Notes: generated from the sequence alone by a model not told the origin. A stretch of 64,000 bases of DNA from Arenicellales bacterium (GCA_965216735.1 OZ244198.1:39649-103648); one strand, 5' to 3'. Positions 33,408 to 61,044 are shown, counted from the stretch's first letter. Program-made: numbers and translations.

Positions 33408-33462
33408 CACTAAACAGTGGTGGGCCCGGTAGGACTCGAACCTACGACCAATGGATTATGAG
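33408..33462 (-). repeat. 55-bp direct repeat DR1 = 3' 45 nt of a tRNA(CAU) (33418-33462) plus 10 downstream bp; island boundary (att)
   Basis: The minus strand reads CTCATAA-TCCAT-TGGTC-GTAGG-TTCGAGT-CCTAC-CGGGCCC-A-CCA, which is anticodon loop through CCA. It is identical to 60990-61044. The flank lacks a D-arm or 5' acceptor. Confidence 0.9.
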
Positions 33463-33587
33463 AACGCCAAAGGAATTGGCAAAGGTATATTTTTCAATAA
33501 CTTATCGGGGCGTCCGTTGCACCGATTTGCAGGGTTTTGCAGCACAATGCACGGCTCATCTACGCAAAATCCCCGCAAGCCCAAGTG

Positions 33588-33629
33588 TTGACTCAATCGA
33601 TACATTGGCATATGTTTAGGCATATGCCA
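33588..33629 (+). promoter_or_regulatory. Putative vapBC promoter with palindromic operator
   Basis: TTGACT (33588-33593), a 17-bp spacer, then TATGTT (33611-16). A perfect 9-bp inverted repeat TGGCATATG/CATATGCCA (33606-33629) overlaps the -10, about 20 nt upstream of vapB. Confidence 0.55.
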
Positions 33630-33648
33630 TATAGGTTGAATTAAAACG

Positions 33649-33891
33649 ATGGAAGATATCGAACGACACGTTAAATTGTTTCGCAACGGCCGCAACCAAG
33701 CACTCCGAATTCCCCGGGATTTTGAGATAAAGGGGGACGAAGCCATTTTACGCAAGGACGGAGATCGACTTATCGTAGAACCCGTTCGAAAAGGACAATT
33801 GTTATCGTTGTTAAGCAGCTTAAGTCCCTTGAAAGAAATATTCCCTGATATAGACAAAGACTTACCTCAACTAGAGGACGCCACTTTGTAA
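33649..33891 (+). CDS. vapB: VapB-type antitoxin (AbrB/SpoVT fold)
   Basis: KLFRNGRNQALRIPRDFEIKGDEAILRKDGDRLIVEP is the AbrB-type swapped-hairpin motif. It sits 1 nt upstream of a PIN gene. Confidence 0.85.
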   Translation: MEDIERHVKLFRNGRNQALRIPRDFEIKGDEAILRKDGDRLIVEPVRKGQLLSLLSSLSPLKEIFPDIDKDLPQLEDATL

Positions 33892-33892
33892 A

Positions 33893-34306
33893 ATGACTCT
33901 TCGGTATCTTCTGGATACGAATATCGTGTCTGATCTTGTCCGAAATCCCCAGGGCATGATAGCTGATCGAATTGCTGCGGTAGGGGAAGATTCTGTTTGT
34001 ACCAGTATTATTGTCTCGAGCGAGTTGCGATACGGTGCGGAAAAATCCAGTTCACAAGCGCTTATTGATCGTGTTGATCTGATACTGTCTGCGATTGAGA
34101 TATTGCCATTTAATGAACCCGCTGATCGTCACTACGGAACACTTCGCCAACAGCTTACAGCTAAGGGAACTCTAATTGGACCAAACGATTTACTCATCGC
34201 CGCGCATGCACTCGCTGAGAGACTGATCATCGTGACTGCAAACTATGGAGAAATTTCCAGAGTGCCGGGGTTGATTGTGGAAAATTGGCTGGGTGAACGT
34301 GGGTAA
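33893..34306 (+). CDS. vapC: VapC PIN-domain toxin
   Basis: YLLDTNIVSDL..., acidic residues in the SSELRYGAEKS region, and NDLLIAAHAL...TAN are typical of VapC. Confidence 0.85.
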   Translation: MTLRYLLDTNIVSDLVRNPQGMIADRIAAVGEDSVCTSIIVSSELRYGAEKSSSQALIDRVDLILSAIEILPFNEPADRHYGTLRQQLTAKGTLIGPNDLLIAAHALAERLIIVTANYGEISRVPGLIVENWLGERG

Positions 34307-34346
34307 CTTTTGGACGTCGATTAGCCTCTAACTCTAATCTGGGTCA

Positions 34347-34499
34347 TTTTTACATGCCGGTACACATGGCAGCTTTATGTAGTATGACCTAGGATTCTTT
34401 GATCTGGATTTGGGGTGCGTAGAACCCGCCCCGAATCCTTATCGTACAGAAACTGTAAACCATGTGCCCGGTACAAAATGTAAACCATGTCTCCGGTAA
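34347..34499 (+). mobile_element. Miniature/internally deleted IS481-type remnant
   Basis: 34383-34470 translates to YDLGFFDLDLGCVEPAPNPY.., which parallels the C-terminus (YDLGFFDQNENRVAPGDNPF) of the intact transposase at 59774-60961. Two copies of the GTAAACCATGT(G/C)(C/T)CCGGTA end-repeat follow. A possible left IR lies at about 34347-34366. Confidence 0.5.
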
Positions 34500-34789
34500 G
34501 GACCGATGTCTTACCGGTAGTGAACACCCTTACATAAGGTGTGACCACGTCTGGGACTGTTGCATCATCCGTGTCAAAGCAGTCAATAGATAAAGTCGTT
34601 AAACACCCAGTTGAATCAGCGATGTCGTTGAGTGTTATGTTCGAATTTATATGTGCACATGTATGCGGAGGACAAGCCAAATGGTCTGCCAAAGCTCGCC
34701 TAAAATCGTTTCGGACGCGAGATCGGTCGCCAGCACGATGAGACCGACGAAATGGTCCGCGCCGCCGGCATCGAAGTCCGGCTTCCAGA

Positions 34790-36868
34790 TCATCGAACTT
34801 GCTCCTCGATAGCGGTCATTTCACGCTTGAATGGCACGGCGTCGGGATCGATATCGGCGTCTAGGTTACGGGCGTACTTGTGACCTGCATACACAGCGGC
34901 GGCGATGGTGCCAGGTGCATAGGCATCGCCGATCAGATCCACGGACTTGATCCCTGCGTCAGCCCAATCCGCTTGTCGGAAGCAAAGCGAAAGGAACAGA
35001 TCGTCATTCGGCAGGCGCGCTGTCACTGGAACGACGACATCGCACGCCACTTCTTCTCTCTCGCCTGTGAATACGCATTCCAATATGGCTGTGCCGTCAC
35101 GCACCTCGACCAGCGCTTTGCTGACGTGAACGGCGTCGCAAACGTCAATGACGGCTTTTTGTATCCGGTGTTGGTCAAGGGCAGCCGTGGACCAGCTAGA
35201 TACGAGGCCGTCAGTGGTGACAAAGGTCACGCTTTTGCCGTCAGCGGCCAATTGTTCAGCCATCAGGCTGCCCATGTAGTAGTGATCGTCGTCGAATATG
35301 AGATAGCTATTGCCGCTTCGTTTTCCAGCCATGACGTCGTCGGGAGTGAGGCTTCGTTCATCTAAACCCGGAACAGCATGTTGATGATATCGGCCGATCC
35401 CGTCTCGGCGCCAATATGATCCCGTTGCAATCGCCACTCGTTCGAAGCCGAGCTCGAGAACATCATCTGTACTAAGATCACTCTCTAAATAAGTTTCGAC
35501 ATTAACCATGGGCAGCAACAGTATCTCCCGATGATCCTTAACGCGTCCCCAGGTCGAGAGGCCAGGCAGACGCGACTCTCTGGCAACCCGCCCACCCAAC
35601 TCGGCCTCCCCTTCAGCAAGGGTCAAATTGTAGCCGCGCTTGCCGAGATGGTGTGCAGCCTCGAGTCCGGTCGGGCCTGCGCCGACGATCAGAATCTTGT
35701 CCTCGGAGCCTTTGGGCGCAGCCTGTTCCGGGTGCCATCCCTTTCGCCACTCCTCGCCCTGGGTCGGGTTCTGTGTGCAACGGATCGGTACGGAGAGCTC
35801 ATCATGTGCGACGCATACGTTGCAGCCGATACACTCTCGAATTTCGTCTACTCGTCCCTCCTCGATCTTCTTAGGCAAGAACGGATCGGCGATCGACGGG
35901 CGCGCCGCGCCAATGAAATCCAAGACGCCGCTCTTGATTTGTCGAACCATGGTATCGGGAGAGGTAAACCTGCCGACGCCAACGACCGGTTTGGTGGTCA
36001 GTTTTTTGATCCGTTTGACGAACGGTTCTTCCACCGCTTCGGGTGAGAACCGCGAGGTTTGAGAGTCGTTGGTCCAATCCGACAACGTCACGTCCCAGAG
36101 ATCTGGAAGCTCCGCGAGCATACCGATCGCGTCCTCCGCCTCCGAGGTCTCCAGTCCCTTGTTGCCGACGAGTTCGTCGATACTGATCCGGATGGCCATG
36201 GCCGCCCGCCCTGCAATCTCCTCACCGGTGTCTTCCAAGACCTCGCGCAATAACCGCACGCGGTTCTCCAGATTGTCGCCATACTCATCATCGCGATGGT
36301 TCCAACGCGGTGACAGAAAGTGAAACAGGACCGACAGGTTGTGCGCGGCATAGACATAGATGATGTCGAAGTCAGCCTTAAGCGCCCGCTTGACTGCCGC
36401 GCGATGCCAACGACGCAGATCGGCAATGTCGCCTTTGTCCATGGCCCTGCACTGAACGGGGTGCAAGTGCCCACCCACTTGTACGGGGAGGTGGCTTGGC
36501 GCAAGCGGGATCTCCCGCGTATACAGACTGGCAACGGCATACGAGTTGTAAACGAGTTCAATACCAGCGAGGGCGCCGTGGCCATGGACGCCGTCGACCA
36601 TCAGCTCCAGGGCAGGCAAGTCGCGATCGTCCCAGATGCGCATTTCCACCAAGGGAGAGCTGTCGGCGGAAGGATGGAACTCGCACTGTTCCGTGTTGAC
36701 GACAGCCCAACCTCCCTCTGCTTTGATCTCGCGCATCCTCGCCATGGCGGAGGCATGCAAGTAACCGAGGCCGTTGCAATGAGGGACCTGATAGAAACGG
36801 TTTCGCGCCGTTTTCGGTCCAATCTGAACAGGCTCGAACAGAATATCGTACCGGGGGTCTCTGGCCAT
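34790..36868 (-). CDS. Trimethylamine/dimethylamine/histamine dehydrogenase-family FMN + 4Fe-4S + ADP-binding flavoprotein
   Basis: (M)ARDPRYDILFEPVQIGPKTARNRFYQVPHC closely parallels the TMADH N-terminus as I recall it, including the Cys used for covalent FMN. Also CIGCNVCV (Fe-S) and VGAGPTGLEAA (dinucleotide fold). The track start is 36883 (GTG). Confidence 0.8.
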   Translation of the reverse strand: MARDPRYDILFEPVQIGPKTARNRFYQVPHCNGLGYLHASAMARMREIKAEGGWAVVNTEQCEFHPSADSSPLVEMRIWDDRDLPALELMVDGVHGHGALAGIELVYNSYAVASLYTREIPLAPSHLPVQVGGHLHPVQCRAMDKGDIADLRRWHRAAVKRALKADFDIIYVYAAHNLSVLFHFLSPRWNHRDDEYGDNLENRVRLLREVLEDTGEEIAGRAAMAIRISIDELVGNKGLETSEAEDAIGMLAELPDLWDVTLSDWTNDSQTSRFSPEAVEEPFVKRIKKLTTKPVVGVGRFTSPDTMVRQIKSGVLDFIGAARPSIADPFLPKKIEEGRVDEIRECIGCNVCVAHDELSVPIRCTQNPTQGEEWRKGWHPEQAAPKGSEDKILIVGAGPTGLEAAHHLGKRGYNLTLAEGEAELGGRVARESRLPGLSTWGRVKDHREILLLPMVNVETYLESDLSTDDVLELGFERVAIATGSYWRRDGIGRYHQHAVPGLDERSLTPDDVMAGKRSGNSYLIFDDDHYYMGSLMAEQLAADGKSVTFVTTDGLVSSWSTAALDQHRIQKAVIDVCDAVHVSKALVEVRDGTAILECVFTGEREEVACDVVVPVTARLPNDDLFLSLCFRQADWADAGIKSVDLIGDAYAPGTIAAAVYAGHKYARNLDADIDPDAVPFKREMTAIEEQVR

Positions 36869-37037
36869 GGGACTAAGCTTCACACTTCCAAATCAAGCTG
36901 TAGTATCAGGCGGATTGCCGACCGTATTTTCTCGCAGAAGCGACGAGCACACCGGAGTCGGCTACGTCCGCTTCTTTGTCTTGAAGAGCGGTGGTCGGCA
37001 GGCACAGCTGCCCCCACCTAGGCTAGTCTTGCAGGGA

Positions 37038-37997
37038 TTAACGTAGCCACGCGGACCAAGTCGCCTTGTTGTCATCCAGCCATTTCTGAACGACGTCTTC
37101 GATGTCTTGACCGTCGACCTCGATATCTCCGAGCATTGTCGACACGTCTTCGCTGCTCATGCGGAAGAGATGAAGCAGTCGGGCCGCTTCCGGAGTCTTG
37201 TCAGTAAACTTCTTGCTGGCGAGTTTCCAGATGTAACCAGGCGTGTACCCGCAATCCCATGTCGCATCCGGGTTCGGTCCCCATGCAGGATCGTCGTAGC
37301 ACGCTTCGTCATGTTCGGGGTAAGTAATGAACTCACCGTCGACACTTTCGAAAAACCAGTGCGGTATAAAACCCCAGCCGATGATCGGCTCTTTCTTGTC
37401 CACGGCAGCCTTGATCGTCGCAACCATAGTGATGGGCGATCCTGAGCTGATCGCTTCAATTTCAAGGCCTAGGCCGTCAAGGCGTTTTTGGGAATCGGTC
37501 TCCCAATCGGCTGGTGCGTCAACCAAGCGGCCACGCGGCTCGGTCTCGACGGTGGAGAGCGCCTTGACGCAGTCTGGATCCTTGAGACCTTCCCAGCTCG
37601 GAAGCCCTGGGCATTGTTCCTTTACGTATGCCGGATACCACCAGCCTTCGACGATTTCTATTCCGGCCGGACCGTAGTTGACGACATTGCCGCTCTTGAC
37701 CGAGTCAATGAAGTTGCCCCAACCGGTCGTATCCCAAAGCGCTGCGGCGACGTCTAGATCGCCGGTTTCCACGGCGGCGACCATCGCAGTGTAGTCGACA
37801 CGCACGAACTCAACATTATAGCCGGCCGCCTTCAAGACGCCACCATACAGATAATTGACGATGTCTCCATCATTGGAGTCCATCAGTGAGATTTTGATTG
37901 GATCCGACGTTTCGACCGCCGGCGCCGGAGCAGCCATGAATGCGAAGGCAAACATGCCTGCGGTAGTACAGCCCAAGATCTTACGCCAAATATTCAT
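37038..37997 (-). CDS. Glycine-betaine/choline-type (ProX/OpuAC-like) ABC substrate-binding protein
   Basis: Signal peptide MNIWRKILGCTTAGMFAFAFMAAPAPA after a ggagg SD. Aromatic-rich WWYPAYV / GWGFIPHWF motifs are typical of quaternary-amine binders. Confidence 0.7.
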   Translation of the reverse strand: MNIWRKILGCTTAGMFAFAFMAAPAPAVETSDPIKISLMDSNDGDIVNYLYGGVLKAAGYNVEFVRVDYTAMVAAVETGDLDVAAALWDTTGWGNFIDSVKSGNVVNYGPAGIEIVEGWWYPAYVKEQCPGLPSWEGLKDPDCVKALSTVETEPRGRLVDAPADWETDSQKRLDGLGLEIEAISSGSPITMVATIKAAVDKKEPIIGWGFIPHWFFESVDGEFITYPEHDEACYDDPAWGPNPDATWDCGYTPGYIWKLASKKFTDKTPEAARLLHLFRMSSEDVSTMLGDIEVDGQDIEDVVQKWLDDNKATWSAWLR

Positions 37998-38221
37998 TGC
38001 TAAGCGCCTCCATTTCGTTTCCACGAGATTGTCTGTTTTGTCCACGCCCCTAGGACCGAACCTCGGCGGCATCGCCGCCACGCATCAAATCCCATCGACG
38101 TTTATGACTTAGTTTCCCATACTAAATACATGGAAAAAAATATGCATTTCCTTAAGCGTACTTGAAGAAATCTAAAAGTATTGCCCATGGATTCGAGAGA
38201 TCTTTTCTCGGGGGTGTGGAG

Positions 38222-39139
38222 CTACCGCCCATCTATCGCGGTCCGAAGGCGCCAGTGGGTCAAAATCGCTGTAAAGGTTTCGAGTGCGAGTGACGCTCTC
38301 TTTCTGGGCCGGGTAATGACGCCGTGCTGCGACTCATAAGTTAGCTCGGTGCGATCAATTCGCGACAACTCGCCTTGCTCGACCCAAGGCTCCGCGTAAT
38401 GGCGCGGCAGGTAGCCGATATAACTACCCGACAGCAGCAATGAGAGCATGCCCTCGATCGTGTTGGTCATTGCTTCCTGGCGGATGACACTCAGATGATC
38501 CCTGTCGAACTCCTGAAGATAGGATCGCACGACCGTCGGGAACGTCGAGAGATCCGCATCTTTTGCTGTCCTAGCGGTCGCGCCAAACAACGTGTGTCCC
38601 CGCCCGCAGTAGACGTCATGCTGTTCGACAAACAATGGCACGAACTGCAAGCTGGAACCGCTGCGACCGAAAGGGCCGATTGCAGCGTGAATGCGGCCAT
38701 CGACAACGTCGCGCTCCAGTTCTTGCTTTGGTGCGATCACCAACTCGATCTCGACGTCGTTGTCGACATTATTGAACTCGCGGATTATCTCGCCGATCGA
38801 GAAATTCGGATGAGACACCAGAGCATCAGACATGCCGATGACGAGCTTGCCTGCAACAAGGCTTTTGACGTGGGCGATCGTGCCAGCGAAGTCGTCGAGC
38901 GATACGAGGATGCCCTTGGTCTCCTCGTAAATGATGCGGCCACGTTCCGTCAGCTTGAAACCGCTCCGTCCACGTTCACAGAGGCGAACTCCCAAACGAC
39001 TTTCGAGGTTGGACATGTGAATGGATATCGTCGAGCTGGAGACGTCCAGATAGGATTCCGCGGCCGCGAATCCGCGTGCCTCGACGACGGTCACGAATAC
39101 CCGAAGCAGTTTTAGATCGACGTCCGAAACTCGTTTCAT
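38222..39139 (-). CDS. LysR-family transcriptional regulator
   Basis: N-terminal LRVFVTVVEARGFAAAESYLDVSSSTISIHMSNLESRLG wHTH. Divergent from the M24/M20 operon. Confidence 0.9.
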   Translation of the reverse strand: MKRVSDVDLKLLRVFVTVVEARGFAAAESYLDVSSSTISIHMSNLESRLGVRLCERGRSGFKLTERGRIIYEETKGILVSLDDFAGTIAHVKSLVAGKLVIGMSDALVSHPNFSIGEIIREFNNVDNDVEIELVIAPKQELERDVVDGRIHAAIGPFGRSGSSLQFVPLFVEQHDVYCGRGHTLFGATARTAKDADLSTFPTVVRSYLQEFDRDHLSVIRQEAMTNTIEGMLSLLLSGSYIGYLPRHYAEPWVEQGELSRIDRTELTYESQHGVITRPRKRASLALETFTAILTHWRLRTAIDGR

Positions 39140-39324
39140 AGCAATGTTGCCGTCAAATCCGCTCTGTCTACTCGGTATGTTTGAAAAAGGCTAAAGTAAA
39201 AGTTTGCTGATTGCAATCCTATCGAAGTCAGTTAACCGATATCATGCCGCCCAATATGCGTCGACAAGAACGGTTCAGTCCAAGACGCATCCGACCGACG
39301 AACAGATTTAAAGGAGGGCGCTTC

Positions 39325-40593
39325 ATGCCGCTGGATAATGATCGCGAGATATTCGAAGTCGCAGAACACACCGAACACGTGACGTTTCAGGCAACGAAAC
39401 GCAAGACGGCGAACGATTTCGACCTACCTATGGTTGAACACGATCGCCTTGCGTTTACGCCGGAAGAGTTTATTCGCCGATACGACACCATTCAGGCGGC
39501 TATGGCCACGAATGAACTTGATGCTCTACTGCTCCGGAGTCCCGAAAATATCACGTACCTCAGCGGTTATGAGACACCCGGTTACTACAAATACCATTGC
39601 ATTGTAGTGCCGAAGGACGGTGAGCCGGTGCTCTTAGTTCGGGATTTCGAGTGGATCAACTCCCCTGAGTTCGCCTGGAATACACGTATCGCGAAGGTCT
39701 ACGACTACGACCATCCTCCGAGCGTGACTGTCAACGTTCTGCAGCAACTTGGTTTGACAGCTGGCAAACGGATCGGTGTCGAGAAGCACAACTTCTTCTA
39801 CACGGTAGACGAGCATGAAACGCTCGTCGCTGAACTTCCGGACAATACTTACGTCGACGGCACGCAAATCCTGTGGGATGCGCGCATGATCAAGTCTGAC
39901 GAGGAGATCGCCGTCATGCGAAAGTCAGCGCATCTCGTGGACCTCGCTATGCAGGCTGGCTATGACGCGACTCGACCGGGCGCGAGCGGCGACGAGATCA
40001 ACGCGATCGTCAATAAGACCCTTTTCGAGAACGGTGGCGAGTACATGGGGTTGCCCCCCTTCGTCCTTGCTGGTGACCGGTCGTGCCTACCGCACCAGAC
40101 AGGTGGCGTGAACAGGCTCGGGGACGATGACGTGATGTACTTCGAGATATCTGCGGCTAAGCATCGTTACACAGCGGCCTTGATGCGAACAATCTTCGTG
40201 GGCAAACCCAAAGACGAATGGATACGCGCCGCCGAAGCATGCATCGAGTCCGTGGGAGCGGCGTTAGAGTTCATTAAGCCTGGCGCTACCTGTCATGATG
40301 CGGACGTTCATGCGCGCGCCGTGATGGAGAAAGCAGGGTTCGGTAAGTATTTTCGGAACCGTTTGGGGTATTCAATCGGAATCAGCTATCCGCCCGACTG
40401 GGGAGAAGGTGAGGTGATTTCGCTCCGTCGGGGGGAGTATCGAGTACTCCAACCTGGTATGACGTTCCATATGCCTCCGATGGCCCTCAAGTACCGCGAG
40501 TACGGTATCGGCTTTTCGGAATCTATCGTCGTGACGGAATCTGGATGCGAGAGACTCTCAAAGTTACCGCGAGAGGTTGTAATTAGGAACTAG
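39325..40593 (+). CDS. M24-family (creatinase/prolidase-fold) hydrolase, copy 1
   Basis: Creatinase_N-like N-domain (FTPEEFIRRYDTIQAAM..NITYLSGYETPGYY) plus a pita-bread C-domain. Start at ATG 39325 after aaaggaggg. Confidence 0.8.
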   Translation: MPLDNDREIFEVAEHTEHVTFQATKRKTANDFDLPMVEHDRLAFTPEEFIRRYDTIQAAMATNELDALLLRSPENITYLSGYETPGYYKYHCIVVPKDGEPVLLVRDFEWINSPEFAWNTRIAKVYDYDHPPSVTVNVLQQLGLTAGKRIGVEKHNFFYTVDEHETLVAELPDNTYVDGTQILWDARMIKSDEEIAVMRKSAHLVDLAMQAGYDATRPGASGDEINAIVNKTLFENGGEYMGLPPFVLAGDRSCLPHQTGGVNRLGDDDVMYFEISAAKHRYTAALMRTIFVGKPKDEWIRAAEACIESVGAALEFIKPGATCHDADVHARAVMEKAGFGKYFRNRLGYSIGISYPPDWGEGEVISLRRGEYRVLQPGMTFHMPPMALKYREYGIGFSESIVVTESGCERLSKLPREVVIRN

Positions 40594-40604
40594 GCTCCAT
40601 CAGG

Positions 40605-41855: not shown

Positions 41856-42117
41856 CCGAAAAATCAATTCGCGGGCAAACTTTGGTTCGTGAGAATGGGA
41901 TGGAATGTTGCTTCAGCCAACAATTCGTATGATTAGCCTCTCTAGATGTTATTCACTTTTACATGCGCCAAAGTTAACATCTTTACATCGAGTCTGTTTC
42001 TTGAACTCGCCGTGCTTTAGAGTTGAAGCGCATCGGAAAGGCGCTGGTGTGACCGGGTCGTTCTAACAATGAGTCGATAGTGCTCCTCTGGGGACCAGAT
42101 AAATATTGAGACGGGAT

Positions 42118-49370: not shown

Positions 49371-49379
49371 GGACGGGGT

Positions 49380-52667: not shown

Positions 52668-52839
52668 GACGGTGTCGCCGGTAGGTCCAGAAGAATACTC
52701 TGTCCGCCATATGACAAGTAATGATTTTTTCTTCTTTAGGCGGCCACAACAAAACAACATTCTTCAATCTTTCCACTAAGATTATCGTATTTAATGCACG
52801 CCGCTCGGAGGCATGCTTCAATGCATTGAGAGATTGAAA

Positions 52840-54330
52840 ATGAATACCAAGGGACACCGACGAACTTGTACAAACCTGCTTCGGCTACTCGACGATCAGA
52901 AGCTGATCCGCGAGTTCAGCTACATCGGTGGCAGCTGGGTCGCCGCTGCGAATGGCGCGACGGTTGAGGTCGAGGACCCCGCGAATGGCGCTTTATTGGG
53001 CAATGTGGCTGCGTTGTCTGCCGCCGAGAGCGCGGCCGCCGTCGACACCGCCCATGACGCATTCCCGGCTTGGGCGGGTTTGCTACCTCAAGAACGCTCC
53101 AAAATTATCCGTCGTTGGTTTGAGCTCGTCGTTGCGCACAAAGAGGACCTGGCGCGGATCATGACGCTGGAACAGGGCAAACCGATTTCGGAGGCCCGCG
53201 GAGAAATTGATTATGCGGCTACTTTTCTCGAATACTACGCGGAGGAAGCTAAGCGGCCGAATATCGAGAGCGTGACCTCGCATTTGCCCGACGCAGAGGT
53301 CGAGGTTTGGCTTGAACCCGTTGGTGTTGCCGCTCTGATCACACCATGGAACTTTCCTTCCGCAATGATCACGCGAAAAGCGGCGGCTGCACTCGCGGCG
53401 GGTTGTACAGTCGTGGTACATCCGTCACACGAAACCCCGTTTTCCGGTTTAGCACTGGCCGAACTAGCCGAGCGTGCCGGTTTTCCGACAGGCGTGTTCA
53501 ACGTAATTGGGGGGCGCGCCTCGGTGGTGGTGCCACCGTGGACTGAGGATCCCCGTGTACGTGTGCTTTCGTTCACAGGTTCCACTGTGGTTGGCAAAGT
53601 GCTCTACGGGAAGTGCGCCGAAACCGTAAAACGCATTGTCATGGAACTCGGTGGTCTAGCCCCATTTATATTATTTGCTGACGGCGATCTGGAACTCGCA
53701 GTCAACGAAGCCATTAAAGCGAAGTTCGCAACTTCAGGACAAGATTGCCTGGGGGCCAACCGCTTTTTTGTAGAGCGGCCGGTTTACGATGAATTTTGCT
53801 GCCAGTTTGCCGACCGCGCAGCGGCATTGACTGTGGGGCCAGGTATCGAAGACCCTGATATCGGTCCGTTGATGAACGAAAAAGCGGTTGCAAAACAGGA
53901 AGAACATATCGCCGATGCGCTTTCGAAAGGTGCCAAACTGGCGTGCGGAGGTCAGCGCCACCACGCTGGACCACTGTTTTTCCAACCTACAGTGTTGACG
54001 GATGTGCCGCTGAATGCGTTGATCATGCACGAGGAGACCTTCGGCCCAGTCGCGGCGATAGCGGCGTTTGACACCGAAGAGGAGGCATTAGACCGAGCGA
54101 ATGATACAGAATACGGTTTGATCGCCTATCTTCACACGCAGGACCCACGCCGGATATACCGTGCGAGCCGCTCGTTGCAATATGGCATGGTTGCGGTCAA
54201 CCGGACAAAAGTCACCGGCGCCCCGATTCCGTTTGGTGGCGTCAAACAATCCGGGTTGGGCCGGGAAGGTGCGCGGTTCGGTATGGAGGCATTCATGGAT
54301 GTGAAATACGTCTGCCGTGACTGGGCCTGA
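52840..54330 (+). CDS. NAD(P)-dependent aldehyde dehydrogenase (succinate-semialdehyde dehydrogenase-like)
   Basis: ITPWNFPSAMITRK, VMELGG and EETFGPV motifs. The catalytic Cys region is GQDCLGANR. The track start is 52813. Confidence 0.85.
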   Translation: MNTKGHRRTCTNLLRLLDDQKLIREFSYIGGSWVAAANGATVEVEDPANGALLGNVAALSAAESAAAVDTAHDAFPAWAGLLPQERSKIIRRWFELVVAHKEDLARIMTLEQGKPISEARGEIDYAATFLEYYAEEAKRPNIESVTSHLPDAEVEVWLEPVGVAALITPWNFPSAMITRKAAAALAAGCTVVVHPSHETPFSGLALAELAERAGFPTGVFNVIGGRASVVVPPWTEDPRVRVLSFTGSTVVGKVLYGKCAETVKRIVMELGGLAPFILFADGDLELAVNEAIKAKFATSGQDCLGANRFFVERPVYDEFCCQFADRAAALTVGPGIEDPDIGPLMNEKAVAKQEEHIADALSKGAKLACGGQRHHAGPLFFQPTVLTDVPLNALIMHEETFGPVAAIAAFDTEEEALDRANDTEYGLIAYLHTQDPRRIYRASRSLQYGMVAVNRTKVTGAPIPFGGVKQSGLGREGARFGMEAFMDVKYVCRDWA

Positions 54331-54352
54331 TAACTATTTACTGGAAAAAACT

Positions 54353-55729
54353 ATGTTAAACAATGATCAACTAAACCGATGGGACCGAGAGACGTTTTTC
54401 CATCCATCCACCCATGTGGCTATGCATGCACGTGGCGAGAGTCCTCAACGTATCGTGGTGGGTGGCGAAGGTGTGTACGTTACAGACAACAACGGACGCA
54501 AGAGCTTGGACGGTTTCGCCGGTTTGTACTGTGTCAACGTCGGTTACGGTCGTAAGGAAATAGCGCAAGCCATCGCCGACCAAGCACAGCAACTCTCGTA
54601 TTACCACGCGTACGCCGGACATGCGAGCGAGGCGGCCATCACGTTGGCCCACATGATTATCGAGCGCGCACCGACGCACATGAGCCATGTCTATTTCGGC
54701 TTATCCGGCTCGGACGCCAACGAAACCAATATCAAATTGGTTTGGTACATTAACAATGTACTCGGCCGACCGGGAAAAAAGAAGATTATTTCGCGTTGGC
54801 GTGGCTATCACGGCTCTGGTGTGATGACCGGGTCACTGACTGGTCTTGAGCTATTTCATAGTGCGTTCGATTTACCGCGTGTCCCTATACTACATACGCA
54901 AGCCCCCTACTATTTTCGCCGCGACGACTTGGATCAGACTGAAGAACAGTTCACCACCGATTGTGCGAAGAAACTGGAAGAACTTATCCTCGCTGAAGGC
55001 CCGGATACCGTAGCAGCGTTTATTGGTGAACCCATTCTGGGTACCGGTGGACTGGTGCCCCCTCCGCAGGGCTATTGGTCGAAGATTCAAGTTGTCTTAA
55101 AGAAGTACGATATCTTGCTCATTGCGGACGAAGTTGTCACCGGTTTCGGCCGCCTCGGATCCATGTTCGGTAGCGAGCATTACGGTATCAGACCGGACAT
55201 CATCACAATTGCAAAAGGGCTAACCTCAGCTTATGCACCCCTATCGGGGTCGATTGTCTCAGAAGAGCTTTGGAAAATTTTGGAACAAGGCTCCGATGAT
55301 CTAGGTGTGTTCGGACACGGCTGGACTTATTCTGCACACCCACTTTGTGCGGCCGCTGGGATTGCGAACCTGAAACTAATCGATCGTCTAGATCTTGTTA
55401 CCAATGCTCGCGATACGGGTGCGTACTTTCAGAAATCACTACATGAAGCATTTGATAATCACCCGATTATTGGCGATGTCCGTGGCGAGGGCCTAATGGC
55501 AGCGCTCGAGTTCGTCGCCGACAAAGACGATCGTGTGTTTTTTGACAGCTCGAAACAAGTTGGGCCGAGGATAGCAGCGGCGGCGCTCGAACATGGCCTC
55601 ATCGCCCGCGCGATGCCGCAGGGAGACATTTTGGGCTTTGCACCACCATTATGTATTTCCAAATACGAAGTGGATGAACTTGTTGACATGACCTTGGCTG
55701 CGGTCACAACGGTTGCCGAAGAACTCTAG
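54353..55729 (+). CDS. Class III (omega) aminotransferase
   Basis: LLIADEVVTGFGRLG and IITIAKGLTSAYAPL (PLP lysine) motifs. Confidence 0.9.
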   Translation: MLNNDQLNRWDRETFFHPSTHVAMHARGESPQRIVVGGEGVYVTDNNGRKSLDGFAGLYCVNVGYGRKEIAQAIADQAQQLSYYHAYAGHASEAAITLAHMIIERAPTHMSHVYFGLSGSDANETNIKLVWYINNVLGRPGKKKIISRWRGYHGSGVMTGSLTGLELFHSAFDLPRVPILHTQAPYYFRRDDLDQTEEQFTTDCAKKLEELILAEGPDTVAAFIGEPILGTGGLVPPPQGYWSKIQVVLKKYDILLIADEVVTGFGRLGSMFGSEHYGIRPDIITIAKGLTSAYAPLSGSIVSEELWKILEQGSDDLGVFGHGWTYSAHPLCAAAGIANLKLIDRLDLVTNARDTGAYFQKSLHEAFDNHPIIGDVRGEGLMAALEFVADKDDRVFFDSSKQVGPRIAAAALEHGLIARAMPQGDILGFAPPLCISKYEVDELVDMTLAAVTTVAEEL

Positions 55730-57320: not shown

Positions 57321-58208
57321 ATGAAAAAACTGGCGTGGGAACTCAAACAACTGACGAAGCGTAATCGCGATGGCGCTTTTGCGACCCAGAAAGCGCGACA
57401 GCAACACCTGGATCTATTCGCCCGTCAATTGGAGGCCATGGGTTACAAAAGTATGGGTAGTCACTCATTGCGACAAAAACACGTCGATGCTCTGATTGAG
57501 CGATGGAAGCGTGAAGCATCGTCTCGAACGGGGGAGAAGCTCACCTCCGCGACCATTGCCAATCGTCTTATTGCCCTGCGCTGGTGGGCGGACAAGATCG
57601 GTAAACCGGGTGTGGTCAAGCCCAAGAACAGAGACTACGGTATATATAAGGAGTACGAACGTTTTACCGAAAATAAGGCAAAAGAACTACTGCCCGAACA
57701 CTTAGCGCGTATTCGTGACCCCTATATCCGTTTAAGCCTACAGTTACAGCGCTACTTTGGTTTAAGGCGTGAGGAGGCGATGAAGATTCAACCCAAACTC
57801 GCCGATCAAGGTGATTGTCTGTACCTCAAAGCCAGTTGGACCAAGGGCGGACGCCAACGTACTGTTCCCATATCCAATCAGAGACAAAGGGAATTACTCG
57901 ATGAAGCGAAACAACTAGCTAAAGGCGGATCATTGATACCACCCCATCTTCTATACAAACAACATCTAAAACGCTTCGAGCATCAAACCCATGCAGCGGG
58001 TATGGGCCAAAGCCACGGATTAAGACATCGGTTCGCACAAGAGACTTATGCACAGTTAACGGGATGGCAATCCCCAGCAGCGGGTGGACCTAAACGCAAA
58101 GCATTATCGCAAGAGCAACAACAGGTTGATCTTAAGGCACGCCAACAACTCACCACATGGATGGGTCATGGCCGTATCCGTGTATTGAATGCCTATATCG
58201 GAAGGTAG
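57321..58208 (+). CDS. Tyrosine-recombinase-fold protein (atypical short integrase-domain family)
   Basis: Candidate catalytic residues GLRREEAMK (Arg), HGLRHRFAQ (His-x-x-Arg) and GHGRIRVLNAYIG (Tyr). Confidence 0.65.
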   Translation: MKKLAWELKQLTKRNRDGAFATQKARQQHLDLFARQLEAMGYKSMGSHSLRQKHVDALIERWKREASSRTGEKLTSATIANRLIALRWWADKIGKPGVVKPKNRDYGIYKEYERFTENKAKELLPEHLARIRDPYIRLSLQLQRYFGLRREEAMKIQPKLADQGDCLYLKASWTKGGRQRTVPISNQRQRELLDEAKQLAKGGSLIPPHLLYKQHLKRFEHQTHAAGMGQSHGLRHRFAQETYAQLTGWQSPAAGGPKRKALSQEQQQVDLKARQQLTTWMGHGRIRVLNAYIGR

Positions 58209-58286
58209 TGATAGTAAAACTTCAATATTTATGGAGAACCTTCTTGTGAATGCACAACGGCTAGTCAATGAGAAGATAAGAGCTCA

Positions 58287-58676
58287 GTGACACGCCAACC
58301 ACACGGTAATGAAAGTAGCAACGCGGTAGCTGTTACTACCGTATTGCCACGGCTATTGCGTTTTCGGGATGCCCCGCTGTACTTGGGTATGGACCGAAAC
58401 CGATTTAACCAAGAAGTCAGGCCCTATGTGACCGAGATACCGATTGGCACACAGGGTGTTGCCTTCGACCGACTTGATTTGGACGCCTGGGTGGATCAGT
58501 ATAAACACTGCAACGGGCGTCCCGGTCAACTCATAGGAGAAAGACCATGGGACGTAAAAGAACGCCGGGCCTATACAAACGTAAAGGCACCTGGCATATC
58601 GACAAAAATATCTACGGGCGGCGAGTTTGCCAAAGCACTGGCACTGATCGACTTGAAGAAGCGGAACGTTTCTTAG
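58287..58676 (+). CDS. AlpA/excisionase-like small DNA-binding protein
   Basis: LLRFRDAPLYLGMDRNRFNQEVRPYV...GVAFDRLDLDAWVD resembles AlpA/Xis-type wHTH proteins found upstream of island integrases. The ORF overlaps int by 130 nt, so the 3' end is uncertain. Confidence 0.55.
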   Translation: MTRQPHGNESSNAVAVTTVLPRLLRFRDAPLYLGMDRNRFNQEVRPYVTEIPIGTQGVAFDRLDLDAWVDQYKHCNGRPGQLIGERPWDVKERRAYTNVKAPGISTKISTGGEFAKALALIDLKKRNVS

Positions 58677-59629
58677 CCCGTTTGGTAGAAGGTTCACGCC
58701 AAGCAACTATATACGGCGTAAGACCAAAATGGACGTTCGAACAGGCGGCCGCGAGATTTGTGCACGAGAATCAGCACAAACGTAGTCTGAATGCAGATGT
58801 TTACAGACTACAAAATCTATTGCCCTGGATAGGCACGTTGCCACTGGAGAGTGTTCATAGTGGAACGTTGCAGCCTTGGCTTGAGCATCGACGGAGTGAA
58901 GGTGTTAAAGCTGCAACGATCAATCATGGATTGAAAATAGTGAGACGCATCTTGAATCTCGCCGCAACCGAGTGGATAGATGAACAAGGACTAACGTGGA
59001 TAGCATTTGCACCAAAGATACGACTCTTAGTAGTCAGGGACCAGCGCCAGCCTTACCCACTATCGTGGGAAGAGCAGGATCGTCTGTTTCACGAACTGCC
59101 AAGGTATTTGGCGGACATGGCCTTGTTTGCCGTCAATACCGGTTGTCGTGATCGTGAAATCTGTGGATTGCGTTGGGAATGGGAAGTCAAAATCCCCGAA
59201 CTCACCACGTCCATGTTCATCATTCCGGGTAAAGTGGTTAAGAACGGAGATGAGCGATTGGTGGTTTTGAATCGTGTTGCACGTTCGGTCGTCGAGGGTT
59301 GTCGAAATCAACACCCGACACATGTATTTAGTTGTAAAGGACGGCCCTTGGTACGAATGCTCAGCAATGGATGGCGGGCTGCAAGAGCGCGAGCCGGATT
59401 ACCACAGGTTCGTGTACATGATTTGAAACATACCTTTGGACGACGCCTTCGTTCGGCAGGTGTGAGTTTCGAAGACCGCCAAGATTTGTTAGGACATCGA
59501 TCAGGGAGAATGACGACACACTATTCGGCTGCTGAGCTTTCGAATCTGATTGATGCAGCGAATCGTGTGTGTGAGCGTGATAACGGGCGACCACAATTGG
59601 TCGTTTTGCGAAGACTTTCAGTGGCTTAG
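58547..59629 (+). CDS. int: Tyrosine-type site-specific integrase (P4-like island integrase)
   Basis: PGLYKRKGTWHIDK N-terminus. Catalytic motifs TGCRDREICGLRW, VHDLKHTFGRRL and LLGHRSGRMTTHY. Confidence 0.9.
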   Translation: MGRKRTPGLYKRKGTWHIDKNIYGRRVCQSTGTDRLEEAERFLARLVEGSRQATIYGVRPKWTFEQAAARFVHENQHKRSLNADVYRLQNLLPWIGTLPLESVHSGTLQPWLEHRRSEGVKAATINHGLKIVRRILNLAATEWIDEQGLTWIAFAPKIRLLVVRDQRQPYPLSWEEQDRLFHELPRYLADMALFAVNTGCRDREICGLRWEWEVKIPELTTSMFIIPGKVVKNGDERLVVLNRVARSVVEGCRNQHPTHVFSCKGRPLVRMLSNGWRAARARAGLPQVRVHDLKHTFGRRLRSAGVSFEDRQDLLGHRSGRMTTHYSAAELSNLIDAANRVCERDNGRPQLVVLRRLSVA

Positions 59630-59701
59630 CCGCTAGGTCCCGCAAAATCCCCGCGCGCGCTAGTAGGATAAAAGGTCGAAGGGCGCTAAGTGATTGATGT
59701 A

Positions 59702-60985
59702 TTACCCGATAGATAGGTAACACATTATACCGGAGACATAGGTTACACAATGACGGCATTTGGGGGACCCCAAATGCCGTGGAAAGAGAGTAACCTGATG
59801 GACGAAAGAATTAAGTTTGTTGGCCGCTTGCTAGATGGCGAGAAAATGGCCGTGGTGTGCCGTGAATTCGGAATCTCCCGTAAGACCGGCTACAAGATCT
59901 TTAATCGCTATAAACAATGGGGTCTTGAAGGGCTTGCTGATCAGAGTCGGCGACCCTATCGGCACGGTAACCAGATTCCCTTTCAGATCGAACGGTCCAT
60001 TGTTCGGATCAAGAAAGAACGCCCCAGCTGGGGGGCACCGAAGATTCGCGAGAAGCTGATCAGGCTGTATCCGATGATCAAGCCCCCTGCCAAGAGTACC
60101 GTACACGCCGTGCTGGATCGTCATGGTTTGGTGAAACGCCGCAAACGCAGGCGCTATCGGGCACAAGGCACACCTCTCCACAACGTCAAACGCCCCAATG
60201 CCCTATGGTGTGCCGACTATAAAGGGGAGTTTCGTCTGGGTAATCGGCAGTATTGCTATCCACTCACGATTACCGATTATCACTCCCGCTACCTGCTTGC
60301 CTGTGAAGGGCAATCTTCAACCAAAGAGCGATTCGCCTTTACGGTCTTTGACCAGGCATTTCATGAGTATGGTCTACCTGATGCTATCCGTACCGATAAT
60401 GGTGTGCCGTTTGCCTCGCCACATGCGTTGTTTGGGCTAAGCAGACTATCGGTGTGGTGGTTACGATTGGGGATCGCCATTGAGCGGATTAAACCTGGTA
60501 ATCCACAACAAAATGGGCGACACGAACGCATGCATCTCACGCTCAAGAAAGAAGCCACCAAACCACCCGGCTATAACTTGCTACAACAGCAAAGCCGGCT
60601 AGATGACTTCCAGCAACAGTACAACCATGATCGACCGCATCAAGCCCTCAATATGAAATACCCCGGTGAAGTGTATACACCTTCCACACGAGTCTATACG
60701 CCGCCGCAGAAACCAGATTACCCTTATCATGACAAAACCGTGCGGGTCACGCAGTGTGGTCGCATTTGCATGGGTAGCCGTAAGATCAACTTGAGCGTTG
60801 TGTTTGCAGGGCAAAGCGTGGGAATCCGCGAGGTCGATGACAACATATGGCTTGTCAGCTTTATGCATTATGATCTAGGATTCTTTGATCAAAACGAGAA
60901 CAGAGTCGCGCCGGGAGACAATCCGTTCGCACTAAAAGTGTTACCTATGTCTCCGGTATAAACCGTTACCTATGTTCCCGGTCAA
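59702..60985 (+). mobile_element. IS481-family insertion sequence (ends approximate)
   Basis: Long imperfect terminal IRs (ATAGGTAACACATTATACCGGAGACATAGGTTACAC vs the reverse complement of GTGTTACCTATGTCTCCGGTATAAACCGTTACCTAT). One HTH + DDE ORF. No obvious TSD. Confidence 0.7.
59774..60961 (+). CDS. IS481-family transposase
   Basis: MPWKESNLMDERIKFVGRLLDGEKMAVVCREFGISRKTGYKIFNRY HTH, then an rve/DDE core (WCADYKGEF...IRTDNGVPF...NGRHERMH). Confidence 0.8.
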   Translation: MPWKESNLMDERIKFVGRLLDGEKMAVVCREFGISRKTGYKIFNRYKQWGLEGLADQSRRPYRHGNQIPFQIERSIVRIKKERPSWGAPKIREKLIRLYPMIKPPAKSTVHAVLDRHGLVKRRKRRRYRAQGTPLHNVKRPNALWCADYKGEFRLGNRQYCYPLTITDYHSRYLLACEGQSSTKERFAFTVFDQAFHEYGLPDAIRTDNGVPFASPHALFGLSRLSVWWLRLGIAIERIKPGNPQQNGRHERMHLTLKKEATKPPGYNLLQQQSRLDDFQQQYNHDRPHQALNMKYPGEVYTPSTRVYTPPQKPDYPYHDKTVRVTQCGRICMGSRKINLSVVFAGQSVGIREVDDNIWLVSFMHYDLGFFDQNENRVAPGDNPFALKVLPMSPV

Positions 60986-60989
60986 GACC

Positions 60990-61044
60990 CACTAAACAGT
61001 GGTGGGCCCGGTAGGACTCGAACCTACGACCAATGGATTATGAG
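60990..61044 (-). repeat. 55-bp direct repeat DR2 = tRNA(CAU) 3' fragment (61000-61044) plus 10 bp; island boundary (att)
   Basis: Base-for-base identical to 33408-33462. The integrase lies about 1.4 kb inward. The flank on the 5' side is not tRNA-like. Confidence 0.9.

What the first reader, a model, noticed from the sequence alone, without database searches (positions are those of the whole stretch)
33408..61044. 27.5-kb genomic island bounded by perfect 55-bp tRNA(CAU) 3'-fragment repeats, with no intact tRNA at either end
The segments 33408-33462 and 60990-61044 are identical. On the minus strand each reads from the anticodon loop (CTCATAA, anticodon CAT) through the anticodon-stem 3' strand, variable loop, T-arm (GTAGG-TTCGAGT-CCTAC), acceptor 3' strand, discriminator A and CCA, plus 10 more bp. 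This identifies a tRNA-Met or tRNA-Ile2 (lysidine) gene as the target.

A P4-like integrase with an Xis-like gene sits at the DR2-proximal end, as expected for the tRNA-proximal side. A vapBC addiction module sits at the distal end. Identity stops at the same nucleotide in both copies, and neither flank contains a D-arm or 5' acceptor strand.

The most economical model is tandem accretion. The intact tRNA would lie beyond 64 kb, the DNA right of DR2 would be a younger insertion, and DR1 would be the oldest displaced 3' end.
Basis: partly seen in the sequence, partly recalled or inferred. Interest (0 to 1): 0.7.

Follow-up and report, generated by a model that had tools for sequence, protein, structure and literature searches.

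The report
Decayed tRNA-site island in tandem array
This is an ordinary, partly decayed mobile genomic island that inserted into a tRNA gene and now sits inside a chain of such insertions; the only unusual part is a small jumping gene next to it, whose relatives are always found at the tail end of tRNA genes.

Summary
Two perfect 55-bp direct repeats (33408-33462, 60990-61044) carry the last 45 nt (C32 to CCA) of a tRNA(CAU) gene. That gene is intact in 31 gammaproteobacterial MAGs. The window has no tRNA.

The segment is an integrase-type island with a VapBC pair at the far end. At the tRNA-proximal end it has a conserved recombinase / Xis-like / integrase module.

- The integrase (58547-59629, 360 aa) is not P4-like.
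- The 403-aa ORF touching DR2 is an IS481-family transposase, not an integrase.
- In eight homologous loci this integrase lies about 65-80 nt from an intact tRNA (Lys, Phe or CAU). A fragment at DR2 is therefore abnormal.
- One metagenome contig shows the same abnormality.
- DNA right of DR2 starts with 4 of 5 anticodon-stem bases. It then has four 10-bp-phased repeats, built like the arm inside DR1 but with a different motif.

This fits tandem accretion. The neighbouring element and the intact tRNA lie outside the window, so they are untested.

DR1's outer flank is a 5'-truncated IS21, not native chromosome. The high-GC cargo is a (hydroxy)ectoine-type catabolic cluster.

Side finding: the IS481 clade always abuts tRNA 3' ends at fixed spacing.

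The parts
32503..33407 (-). IS21 remnant. It has an intact istB (32503-33189) plus only the last ~54 codons of istA (33190-33407), cut off exactly at DR1.
   Evidence: Pfam IstB_IS21 E=1.4e-61. The minus-strand frame reads ...PLADYNQLLGHTVEAAYV* into the istB start. Weak tblastn to Thiothrix IstA aa 453-504 runs up to position 33408.
33408..33462 (-). DR1: tRNA(CAU) positions 32-76 plus 10 nt downstream (attL-type core).
33463..33600 (.). Distal (P-type) arm of the island. It has four TGCA[C/G] motifs at exact 10-bp spacing (33518/28/38/48) and the 14-mer CGCAAAATCCCCGC (33563-33576).
   Evidence: Motif positions. The 14-mer occurs only here and at 59641-59654, with 0.03 matches expected.
33649..34306 (+). 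vapB (33649-33891) and vapC (33893-34306) toxin-antitoxin pair.
   Evidence: Pfam MazE_antitoxin and PIN. NCBIfam VapB/VapC families match, but below their curated cut-offs.
34367..34507 (+). 140-bp right-end remnant of a related IS481-family element, marking the start of the high-GC block.
   Evidence: Repeat families D1 and D3, alignments A1/A2, end-motif match.
34790..55729 (.). High-GC (0.55-0.58) cargo, a compatible-solute ((hydroxy)ectoine-type) uptake and catabolism cluster. It encodes OYE-type flavoenzyme, OpuAC binding protein, LysR, two DoeA-like M24 hydrolases, amidohydrolase, ABC ATPase/permease, EutB, EutC-like cyclodeaminase, deacetylase-fold protein, GMC oxidoreductase, AsnC regulator, aldehyde dehydrogenase and aminotransferase.
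57321..58208 (+). Second tyrosine-recombinase-like gene (295 aa, Integrase_1 + Phage_int_SAM_2), a conserved partner upstream of the integrase.
   Evidence: Pfam. A 47%-identical orthologue sits in the same position in L060, and a related gene in L061.
58287..58676 (+). Xis-like ORF. The conserved part starts at about 58347, and the ORF overlaps the integrase start by 130 nt.
   Evidence: No HMM hit. It is 52-62% identical at the same place in 8 homologous loci, but other frames there are conserved too. 'Excisionase' is inferred from position and sequence pattern.
58547..59629 (+). Island integrase, a 360-aa tyrosine recombinase.
   Evidence: Pfam PF00589. More than 7000 homologues exist, mostly 360 aa. 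Homologues lie next to tRNA genes.
59630..59697 (.). Integrase-proximal (P'-type) arm, with the family motif GTCCCGCAAAATCCCCGC (14-mer at 59641-59654) and GCGCTAAGTGATTG.
   Evidence: Comparison with L034/L036/L038/L042/L043/L059-61.
59695..60992 (+). IS481-family insertion sequence (termini uncertain by about 3 nt; transposase 59750-60961). It sits between the P' arm and the DR2 core.
   Evidence: NCBIfam transpos_IS481 225.3 bits against a cut-off of 224. 45-nt terminal inverted repeats, 82% complementary. 66% nt identity to rhizobial copies.
60990..61044 (-). DR2: the same 55-mer. It is a hybrid junction, with this island's P' arm on one side and a different arm on the other.
61045..61170 (.). 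Arm of the presumed neighbouring element. It starts CCCAC (4/5 of the anticodon-stem 5' strand), then has four [A/G]TGAC motifs at exact 10-bp spacing (61109/19/29/39) and two inverted copies (61152, 61163).
61207..62422 (-). M20-family peptidase pseudogene, split by in-frame stop codons near 62010-62021.
   Evidence: Pfam on the two ORFs; sequence.

Best explanation
The segment 33408-61044 is a degenerate integrative genomic island of the tyrosine-recombinase kind.

How it arose (inferred). Its integrase recombined an attP carrying tRNA positions 32-76 with a tRNA(CAU) gene, probably tRNA-Ile2, crossing over in the anticodon loop. This left the two 55-bp att cores.

Anatomy (shown). The integrase end carries a conserved recombinase / Xis-like / Int module. 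The far end carries the distal arm and a VapBC addiction pair. The middle is a secondarily acquired high-GC catabolic block.

Place in an array (inferred). The island is an internal member of a tandem array made by site-specific accretion. DR2 is a hybrid junction between this island's integrase arm and the distal arm of a second, related element lying to the right. That element's far end should carry the intact tRNA. Which of the two elements arrived first cannot be told.

Later decay.
- An IS481-family element landed between the integrase arm and the DR2 core. This probably disables excision (inferred).
- A deletion fused DR1 to a truncated IS21 (the fusion is shown; the deletion is inferred).
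For: 1. The repeats match the tRNA 3' part exactly. In five independent orphan copies (DR1, DR2, L020, L024, L042) similarity to the tRNA stops at the same base, C32. This is the signature of a fixed crossover or identity limit, not of random breakage.
2. Integrase homologues (61-77% identity) lie about 65-80 nt from the 3' end of an intact, oppositely oriented tRNA in 8 independent loci: Lys-UUU, Lys-CUU, Phe-GAA and CAU. With the IS removed, the window has the same spacing and the same P' arm motifs.
3. The two ends of the island share an exact 14-mer found nowhere else in the window. That 14-mer is the family's P' motif.
4. The DNA just inside DR1 and the DNA just right of DR2 have the same build: a 56-65 nt spacer, then four motifs at exact 10-bp phase. 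The motifs differ (TGCA[C/G] versus [A/G]TGAC). L042 shows the same build after its orphan fragment.
5. Right of DR2, 4 of 5 anticodon-stem bases persist, as expected for an attP half-site.
6. The source contig (5.18 Mb) encodes a second integrase of the family, 69% identical.
7. GC content is 0.55-0.58 in 34.5-55.7 kb, against about 0.48 around it.
8. Synteny with the only relative found ends at 24.2 kb.
9. Tandem accretion at att sites is well documented (PMC5704250).
Against: - The neighbouring element, its integrase and the intact tRNA are outside the window and were never seen.
- The 3 kb right of DR2 holds a peptidase pseudogene and a DUF1028 gene, which are not island hallmarks.
- The outer flank of DR1 is a truncated IS21, not chromosome, so the array's left end is not intact.
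- The outer identity limits of both repeats coincide with IS-related junctions. This is not explained.
- The arm repeats are called integrase or accessory-protein binding sites only by analogy.
- The 4/5 stem match has a chance probability of about 0.016, which is modest.
- No close relative exists in the databases (best 72-80% aa identity), so no empty site could be shown.
Confidence: 0.62

Rival explanations
1. A single island once sat next to the intact tRNA. The 5' half of the tRNA was later separated from DR2 by an IS-mediated deletion, inversion or translocation. No second element is involved.
For: The region is IS-rich: IS256-, IS5-, IS21- and IS481-family genes. DR1's outer flank is demonstrably such a scar. 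The right flank holds a pseudogene.
Against: - The break would have to fall exactly at C32, the same base as in DR1 and in L020, L024 and L042.
- No IS end lies right of DR2.
- The DNA there has the phased-repeat build of a distal att arm and keeps 4/5 stem bases.
Confidence: 0.15
2. The repeats are a product of the IS481-family element rather than of the tyrosine integrase. In this reading the DDE element carries or duplicates the tRNA 3' fragment when it moves.
For: The IS abuts DR2, and a remnant of a related IS lies 0.9 kb from DR1. Every clade member examined is followed by a tRNA 3' end or fragment at fixed spacing.
Against: - DR1 has no IS next to it.
- Twin IS copies that are 100% identical in R. 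tumorigenes are followed by different tRNA-like sequences. The fragment is therefore target, not cargo.
- L042 and L043 have the same integrase-fragment or integrase-tRNA arrangement without any IS.
- Rhizobial copies sit beside intact tRNA-Arg with no duplicated fragment on the other side.
Confidence: 0.05
3. DR2 with its two arms is an intact attP of one element that spans both sides of DR2 and entered the chromosome by another route. DR1 would then belong to a different event.
For: The order integrase - P' arm - core - phased-repeat arm is exactly the build of an attP. Metagenome contigs L042, L062, L069 and L071 may be such circular forms. The P' arm contains AAGTGAT, one mismatch from the [A/G]TGAC motif right of DR2.
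Against: - The exact 14-mer shared between the P' arm and the arm inside DR1 ties DR1, not the right flank, to this integrase.
- AAGTGATTG also occurs in the P' arm of L042, whose distal repeats are different.
- This reading needs an extra unexplained capture event.
Confidence: 0.1

Closest known systems
Tandem (site-specific) accretion of integrative elements at tRNA or other att sites, such as CIME-ICE, IME-IME and island arrays (reviewed in PMC5704250; Pavlovic 2004 and Bellanger 2011 as cited there)
   Same: There are several direct att repeats, with internal junctions that are orphan gene fragments. The partly decayed member keeps attL/attR. The integrase lies at the target-proximal end.
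   Different: Only one full member and the edge of a second are visible here. The array's outer end is a deletion scar. An IS separates the integrase arm from the core.
P4-like integrase genomic islands of Enterobacteria
   Same: They also target a tRNA, use a tRNA 3'-fragment repeat, place the integrase next to the tRNA, and have a small Xis/AlpA-like gene.
   Different: This integrase is 360 aa and lacks the DUF4102 (Arm-DNA-bind_3) domain. It belongs to a separate family found at the ends of ICE-like elements with AcaB, DUF2857 and FlhC/FlhD-like genes.
Tycheposons, the tRNA-targeting elements that build tandem island arrays in marine Prochlorococcus (bioRxiv 10.1101/2020.12.28.424599, seen; details from my own knowledge)
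   Same: Marine bacteria, tyrosine recombinases, partial-tRNA repeats, arrays of cargo-carrying elements.
   Different: No sequence relation was tested. The host and the recombinase family here are different.
IS481 family insertion sequences (IS481 itself duplicates an NCTAGN target; from my own knowledge)
   Same: DDE (rve) transposase with an HTH/leucine-zipper N-terminus, about 1.3 kb, terminal inverted repeats. It scores just above the NCBIfam IS481 cut-off.
   Different: This clade is found only at a fixed distance from tRNA 3' ends or tRNA-like fragments, in one orientation. No target duplication was seen. No description of this behaviour turned up in three literature searches.
ehu/eut/doe (hydroxy)ectoine uptake and catabolism clusters
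   Same: EutB scores above its curated cut-off. The cluster also has an EutC-like cyclodeaminase, DoeA-like hydrolases, an AsnC regulator, an aldehyde dehydrogenase, an aminotransferase and an ABC importer.
   Different: Both DoeA-like proteins and the EutC model TIGR02992 score below cut-off. Extra genes are present (OYE flavoenzyme, GMC oxidoreductase, deacetylase-fold protein, carbamoylase-type amidohydrolase). The substrate may therefore be a related solute.

Membership tests
tRNA-integrating genomic island (tyrosine recombinase) | Direct repeats that reproduce the 3' part of a tRNA gene | tested here: met
   The 55-bp perfect repeats include 45 nt identical to the 3' part of intact tRNA(CAU) genes.
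tRNA-integrating genomic island (tyrosine recombinase) | Tyrosine recombinase gene at one end, next to the att core | tested here: met
   PF00589 integrase at 58547-59629. Homologues lie 65-80 nt from tRNA genes. Here the integrase is displaced by a 1.3-kb IS.
tRNA-integrating genomic island (tyrosine recombinase) | Intact tRNA restored at the integrase-proximal end | tested here: not met
   DR2 is a fragment and ARAGORN finds 0 tRNA genes in the window. This is what an internal member of an array would show.
tRNA-integrating genomic island (tyrosine recombinase) | Absent from the same site in relatives (empty site) | tested here: inconclusive
   The nearest relative is only 72-80% identical at protein level. 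Synteny ends at 24.2 kb, and none of the 24-64 kb genes lie within 10 kb in L041.
Tandem accretion array | Internal junction joining the integrase arm of one element to the distal arm of another | tested here: met
   The arm right of DR2 has the same build as the arm inside DR1, but a different motif. It also keeps 4/5 stem bases. That these are protein-binding arms is inferred.
Tandem accretion array | Second element with its own integrase, and the intact target gene at the end of the array | not testable with these tools
   The window ends at 64000. The source contig could not be read. A paralogous integrase exists somewhere on the contig.
P4-like integrase | N-terminal DUF4102 / Arm-DNA-bind_3 domain plus a SAM-like domain, about 400 aa | tested here: not met
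   Pfam finds only PF00589. NCBIfam gives only weak Xer-type hits far below cut-off.
IS481 family | Transposase matching the family model, plus terminal inverted repeats | tested here: met
   NF033577 scores 225.3 bits against a cut-off of 224. Inverted-repeat arms at 59704-59748 and 60938-60982.
IS481 family | Short target-site duplication | tested here: not met
   No duplication flanks the window copy. None flanks the two identical R. tumorigenes copies either. The termini are uncertain by a few nt.
VapBC type II toxin-antitoxin | AbrB/MazE-fold antitoxin gene immediately upstream of a PIN-domain toxin gene | tested here: met
   PF04014 and PF01850, with the two genes 1 nt apart. The NCBIfam VapB/VapC models match, but below their cut-offs.
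(Hydroxy)ectoine catabolic cluster | EutB, EutC and DoeA/EutD equivalogs | tested here: inconclusive
   EutB is above cut-off (447 vs 413). The cyclodeaminase PRK08291 model is above cut-off, but TIGR02992 EutC is below (427 vs 472). Both DoeA-like proteins are below cut-off.

The most novel reading that the evidence does not exclude
The IS481-family element beside DR2 belongs to a clade of DDE transposons that home to the 3' end of tRNA genes and to tRNA-like att cores.

They insert in one orientation, about 10 nt from the CCA position, with no visible target duplication. This places them between an island's integrase and its att core, so they can then travel with the island.

In all 18 clade loci examined (at least 58% aa identity), the T-arm motif starts 22-25 nt after the IS end motif; in two of them (L050, L074) the T-arm is degenerate and was placed by eye. 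The loci cover:
- intact tRNA-Arg (CCG and TCG) and tRNA-Ser genes;
- orphan fragments related to tRNA-Arg (TCG- and ACG-type) and tRNA(CAU), plus unassigned tRNA-like fragments;
- hosts in Alpha- and Gammaproteobacteria.

More distant IS481 members lack this association.
Probability: 0.55. Interest if true: 0.6.

Novelty: new member of a known kind. Interest (0 to 1): 0.33.

Why it matters
For the island itself, little is new. It is one more example of tRNA-site accretion and decay. It carries a compatible-solute catabolic cluster, which shows how such metabolism moves between marine or sediment Gammaproteobacteria.

Two points are useful for annotation. A large ORF next to a tRNA fragment is not necessarily the integrase. 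And 'no intact tRNA at either end' is what an internal array member looks like.

The side finding could matter more. A bacterial DDE transposase that measures its insertion point from a tRNA gene's 3' end would be a compact protein-guided homing system. It would also be a parasite of integrative elements' att sites, and it can be tested directly.

Tried and rejected
1. Reading past the window. Exact look-ups of window proteins (DUF1028, the integrase) and of the paralogous integrase P0080 found no accessible record. The source contig appears to be withheld.
2. Source genome or close relatives through the 45-mer in genome contigs. This gave 33 loci, but none shares the window's flanks.
3. Integrase homologues next to the tRNA in those 33 loci. 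None were found.
4. A third, decayed tRNA fragment after the IS481 remnant at 34507. The local-alignment score is ordinary (572 of 2118 control windows score at least as high), and Rfam finds nothing there. Rejected.
5. Target specificity of P0080 inferred from its nearest homologues. There is no signal: integrases specific for Lys, Phe and CAU are all about 70% identical to one another.
6. Plasmid similarity of the island. Only two short 72-74% matches, both in an aldehyde dehydrogenase gene.
7. Defining the IS21 break with related IS21 DNA. Only istB aligns. A weak IstA C-terminal protein match had to serve instead.
8. Conserved non-coding element in the gene-less stretch 55.7-57.3 kb. It is not conserved in homologous loci.
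9. Exact IS481 termini and target duplication. These remain ambiguous by about 3-5 nt.
10. Literature on tRNA-flank targeting by IS481-family elements. Nothing was found in three searches. This is not proof of novelty.

Full report
**Observation**

The two 55-bp segments at 33408-33462 and 60990-61044 are identical. They are the only copies in the window even when 3 mismatches are allowed, and none is expected by chance.

On the minus strand each reads CTCATAA-TCCAT-TGGTC-GTAGG-TTCGAGT-CCTAC-CGGGCCC-A-CCA plus CTGTTTAGTG. A scan of 185,579 species-representative genomes with the 45-nt tRNA part gave 33 loci, all in gammaproteobacterial MAGs (SAR86, Arenicellales and others). In 31 of them ARAGORN calls an intact 77-nt tRNA with a CAU anticodon whose positions 32-76 are this 45-mer. 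The window itself has no tRNA gene and no Rfam family at gathering score.

The acceptor stem has C4-G69 and C5-G68. From my own knowledge these are TilS determinants in E. coli tRNA-Ile2, so the target is probably tRNA-Ile2 rather than elongator tRNA-Met. I did not test this.

**Gene content between the repeats**

| Coordinates | Feature |
|---|---|
| 33649-34306 | vapB/vapC pair |
| 34367-34507 | 140-bp remnant of the right end of an IS481-type element |
| 34.5-55.7 kb | Block at 55-58% G+C, against about 48% around it |
| 55.7-57.3 kb | Stretch with no credible ORF |
| 57321-58208 | 295-aa recombinase-like gene (Integrase_1 / Phage_int_SAM_2) |
| 58287-58676 | Xis-like ORF |
| 58547-59629 | 360-aa tyrosine recombinase |
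| about 59695-60992 | 1.3-kb IS481-family insertion sequence; its 403-aa transposase ORF (59750-60961) ends 29 nt before DR2 |

The high-GC block encodes an uptake and catabolism cluster of the (hydroxy)ectoine type. EutB is above its curated cut-off. There is an EutC-like cyclodeaminase, two DoeA-like hydrolases below cut-off, AsnC and LysR regulators, an aldehyde dehydrogenase, an aminotransferase and an ABC importer.

The integrase has no P4-type arm-binding domain. The large ORF that actually touches DR2 is a transposase.

**What the integrase family normally does**

The integrase has thousands of homologues of the same length. I read the surroundings of eight independent ones at 61-77% identity. 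In every case the gene is followed, 65-80 nt after its stop, by the 3' end of an intact tRNA gene on the opposite strand:
- tRNA-Lys(UUU) in Sedimenticola selenatireducens;
- tRNA-Phe in a Thiodiazotropha MAG and other MAG and metagenome contigs;
- tRNA-Lys(CUU);
- tRNA(CAU) in the metagenome contig L043.

The short arm between integrase and tRNA is conserved. It has GTCCCGCAAAANTCCCGC at the integrase stop and GCGC(G)TAAGTGATTG a few bases before the tRNA end. The window has both motifs at 59630-59697. If the IS is removed, the spacing to the CCA end equals that of L042 and L043.

The recombinase-like gene upstream is also part of the module (47% identity in L060). So is the overlapping Xis-like ORF, although other reading frames in that stretch are conserved too.

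So this is the island's own integrase, at its tRNA-proximal end. In the normal state, DR2 would be an intact tRNA.

**Why DR2 is only a fragment**

Five orphan copies of this tRNA part are available:
- DR1 and DR2 in the window;
- L020 and L024 in two MAGs;
- L042, a metagenome contig with an integrase of the family (61% identical).

In all five, similarity to the tRNA stops at the same base, C32, the first base of the anticodon loop. That is the mark of site-specific recombination with an attP carrying tRNA positions 32-76. It is not the mark of breakage.

Right of DR2 the sequence keeps 4 of the 5 bases of the 5' anticodon-stem strand (chance about 0.016). After a 65-nt spacer it shows four [A/G]TGAC motifs at exactly 10-bp spacing, followed by two inverted copies. 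Just inside DR1, after a 56-nt spacer, there are four TGCA[C/G] motifs at exactly 10-bp spacing. L042 has five TTTCG-type motifs in 10-bp phase at the same place after its fragment. I read these as the distal arms of att sites. This is an inference by analogy with arm-type binding sites.

The arm inside DR1 also carries an exact copy of the 14-mer CGCAAAATCCCCGC from the integrase-proximal arm. That 14-mer occurs nowhere else in the window. This ties DR1 to this island's integrase.

DR2 therefore joins this island's integrase arm to the distal arm of a different, related element. That is exactly the internal junction of a tandem array. The 5.18-Mb source contig encodes a second integrase of the family at 69% identity, but I could not read its position.

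Tandem accretion is well documented (PMC5704250). The same final structure arises in either order: the right-hand element may have entered the restored tRNA later, or this island may have entered the orphan fragment of a resident element.

**Decay**

The outer flank of DR1 is not chromosome. It is the last ~54 codons of an IS21 istA gene running into an intact istB. The IS21 has lost about 1.35 kb at DR1.

Further left lie an IS5-family and an IS256-family transposase gene and a LacI fragment. Synteny with the nearest relative I could find (72-80% protein identity) resumes only at 24.2 kb.

The M20 peptidase gene right of DR2 is broken by in-frame stops.

The IS481 element separates the integrase arm from the DR2 core by 1.3 kb. 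This should prevent arm and core from being bridged, so the island is probably immobile (inference).

I cannot explain one coincidence. The outer identity limits of the two repeats both fall at IS-related junctions, and within 0-5 nt of the same position.

**The IS481 element**

The window copy is 66% identical in DNA to elements on rhizobial plasmids, and the BLAST match ran on into the tRNA fragment. Following this up, I found one pattern in every clade member examined (at least 58% transposase identity, 18 loci). The right end (...GTTACCTATGTCTCCGG..GGAC[A/C]) is followed, 9-11 nt later and in the same orientation, by the CCA position of one of the following:
- an intact tRNA gene: tRNA-Arg(CCG) on S. 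meliloti pSymB, in two different IS variants; tRNA-Arg(CCG) on an R. leguminosarum plasmid; tRNA-Ser(CGA); tRNA-Arg(UCG);
- a tRNA 3' fragment without a 5' half.

The T-arm motif starts 22-25 nt after the IS end motif. In two of the loci (L050, L074) the T-arm is degenerate and was placed by eye, at +24.

Two copies in R. tumorigenes are 100% identical over 1307 bp but are followed by different tRNA-like sequences. The tRNA part is therefore target, not cargo. No target duplication is visible.

More distant IS481-family members (Leptospira and Cupriavidus, 40-44% identity) show no such neighbour; the Acidisarcina copy (44%) has no ARAGORN tRNA nearby, but its right flank was not examined further.

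In one metagenomic lineage the IS again lies between a different tyrosine integrase and a tRNA-Arg, or an orphan fragment of it. This site preference explains why the IS sits exactly at the edge of DR2. It also explains why a transposase could be mistaken for the island's integrase.

I found no description of this behaviour in three full-text searches. That does not show it is unknown.

**Verdict**

The repeats are real and are tRNA 3' fragments. The segment is an ordinary, decayed tyrosine-integrase island carrying a catabolic cargo. It is most likely an internal member of a tandem array whose intact tRNA lies beyond the window.

The reading is incomplete because the right-hand neighbour could not be seen. 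Interest in the island is low to moderate. The tRNA-end-associated IS481 clade is the item most worth a separate look.

Noticed in passing
window 59695-60992; loci L044, L045, L048-L055, L062-L080: This IS481-family clade has a right end that always lies 9-11 nt from the CCA position of a tRNA gene or tRNA-like fragment, in one orientation. No target duplication is visible. The association holds in all 18 loci examined and is not seen in the more distant family members checked (Leptospira, Cupriavidus).
   Followed up: yes
window 34367-34507: A solo 140-bp right end of a related IS481-type element. The high-GC cargo block begins exactly at its terminus, but no tRNA-like sequence follows it.
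   Followed up: partly
window 34790-55729: A 21-kb block at 55-58% G+C encodes a (hydroxy)ectoine-type uptake and catabolism cluster. EutB is above its cut-off and the DoeA-like proteins are below. Extra genes (OYE, GMC oxidoreductase, deacetylase-fold protein, carbamoylase-type amidohydrolase) suggest the substrate may be a related solute.
   Followed up: partly
window 55730-57320: A 1.6-kb stretch with no credible ORF and a strong excess of A over T. It is not conserved in homologous islands, although L060 also has a gene-less 2.2 kb at the same position.
   Followed up: partly
window 32503-33407: IS21 with an intact istB but only the last ~54 codons of istA, cut exactly at DR1. This deletion junction coincides with the outer limit of the repeat.
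   Followed up: partly
window 24478-25725, 28001-28939, 29254-29667, 31379-32502: An IS256-family transposase gene, an IS5-family transposase gene, a LacI-type C-terminal fragment and 1.1 kb without ORFs. The whole 24.3-33.4 kb stretch is non-syntenic with the nearest relative and may be older island debris.
   Followed up: no
window 61207-62422: An M20-family peptidase gene interrupted by in-frame TAG codons (pseudogene), followed by an intact DUF1028 gene (62416-63072).
   Followed up: partly
window 58547-59629 and homologues: All members of this integrase family read HDLKHTFGRR where tyrosine recombinases usually have H-x-L-R-H. Integrases only about 70% identical to each other use tRNA-Lys, tRNA-Phe or tRNA(CAU), all of which share GGATT at the 3' side of the anticodon loop.
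   Followed up: no
L042 (Ga0136625_1000807) 8700-8820; L062, L069, L071: These metagenome contigs have an integrase next to an orphan tRNA fragment followed by a distal-type arm. They could be tandem arrays or attP junctions of excised circles.
   Followed up: partly
L024 (OZ244194.1, Arenicellales MAG, 4.68 Mb): The only exact copy of the 45-mer in this complete chromosome is an orphan fragment. Its intact tRNA(CAU) must therefore differ by at least one base in the 3' part. The same chromosome encodes a 78%-identical IS481-clade transposase (P0258).
   Followed up: no
L074 versus L072: In two copies of one IS481-clade element, identity extends 15 nt past the usual end motif. The left flank of L074 ends in a tRNA 3'-end-like TGGCGCACCCGGA. 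The true termini of these elements are therefore not settled.
   Followed up: partly
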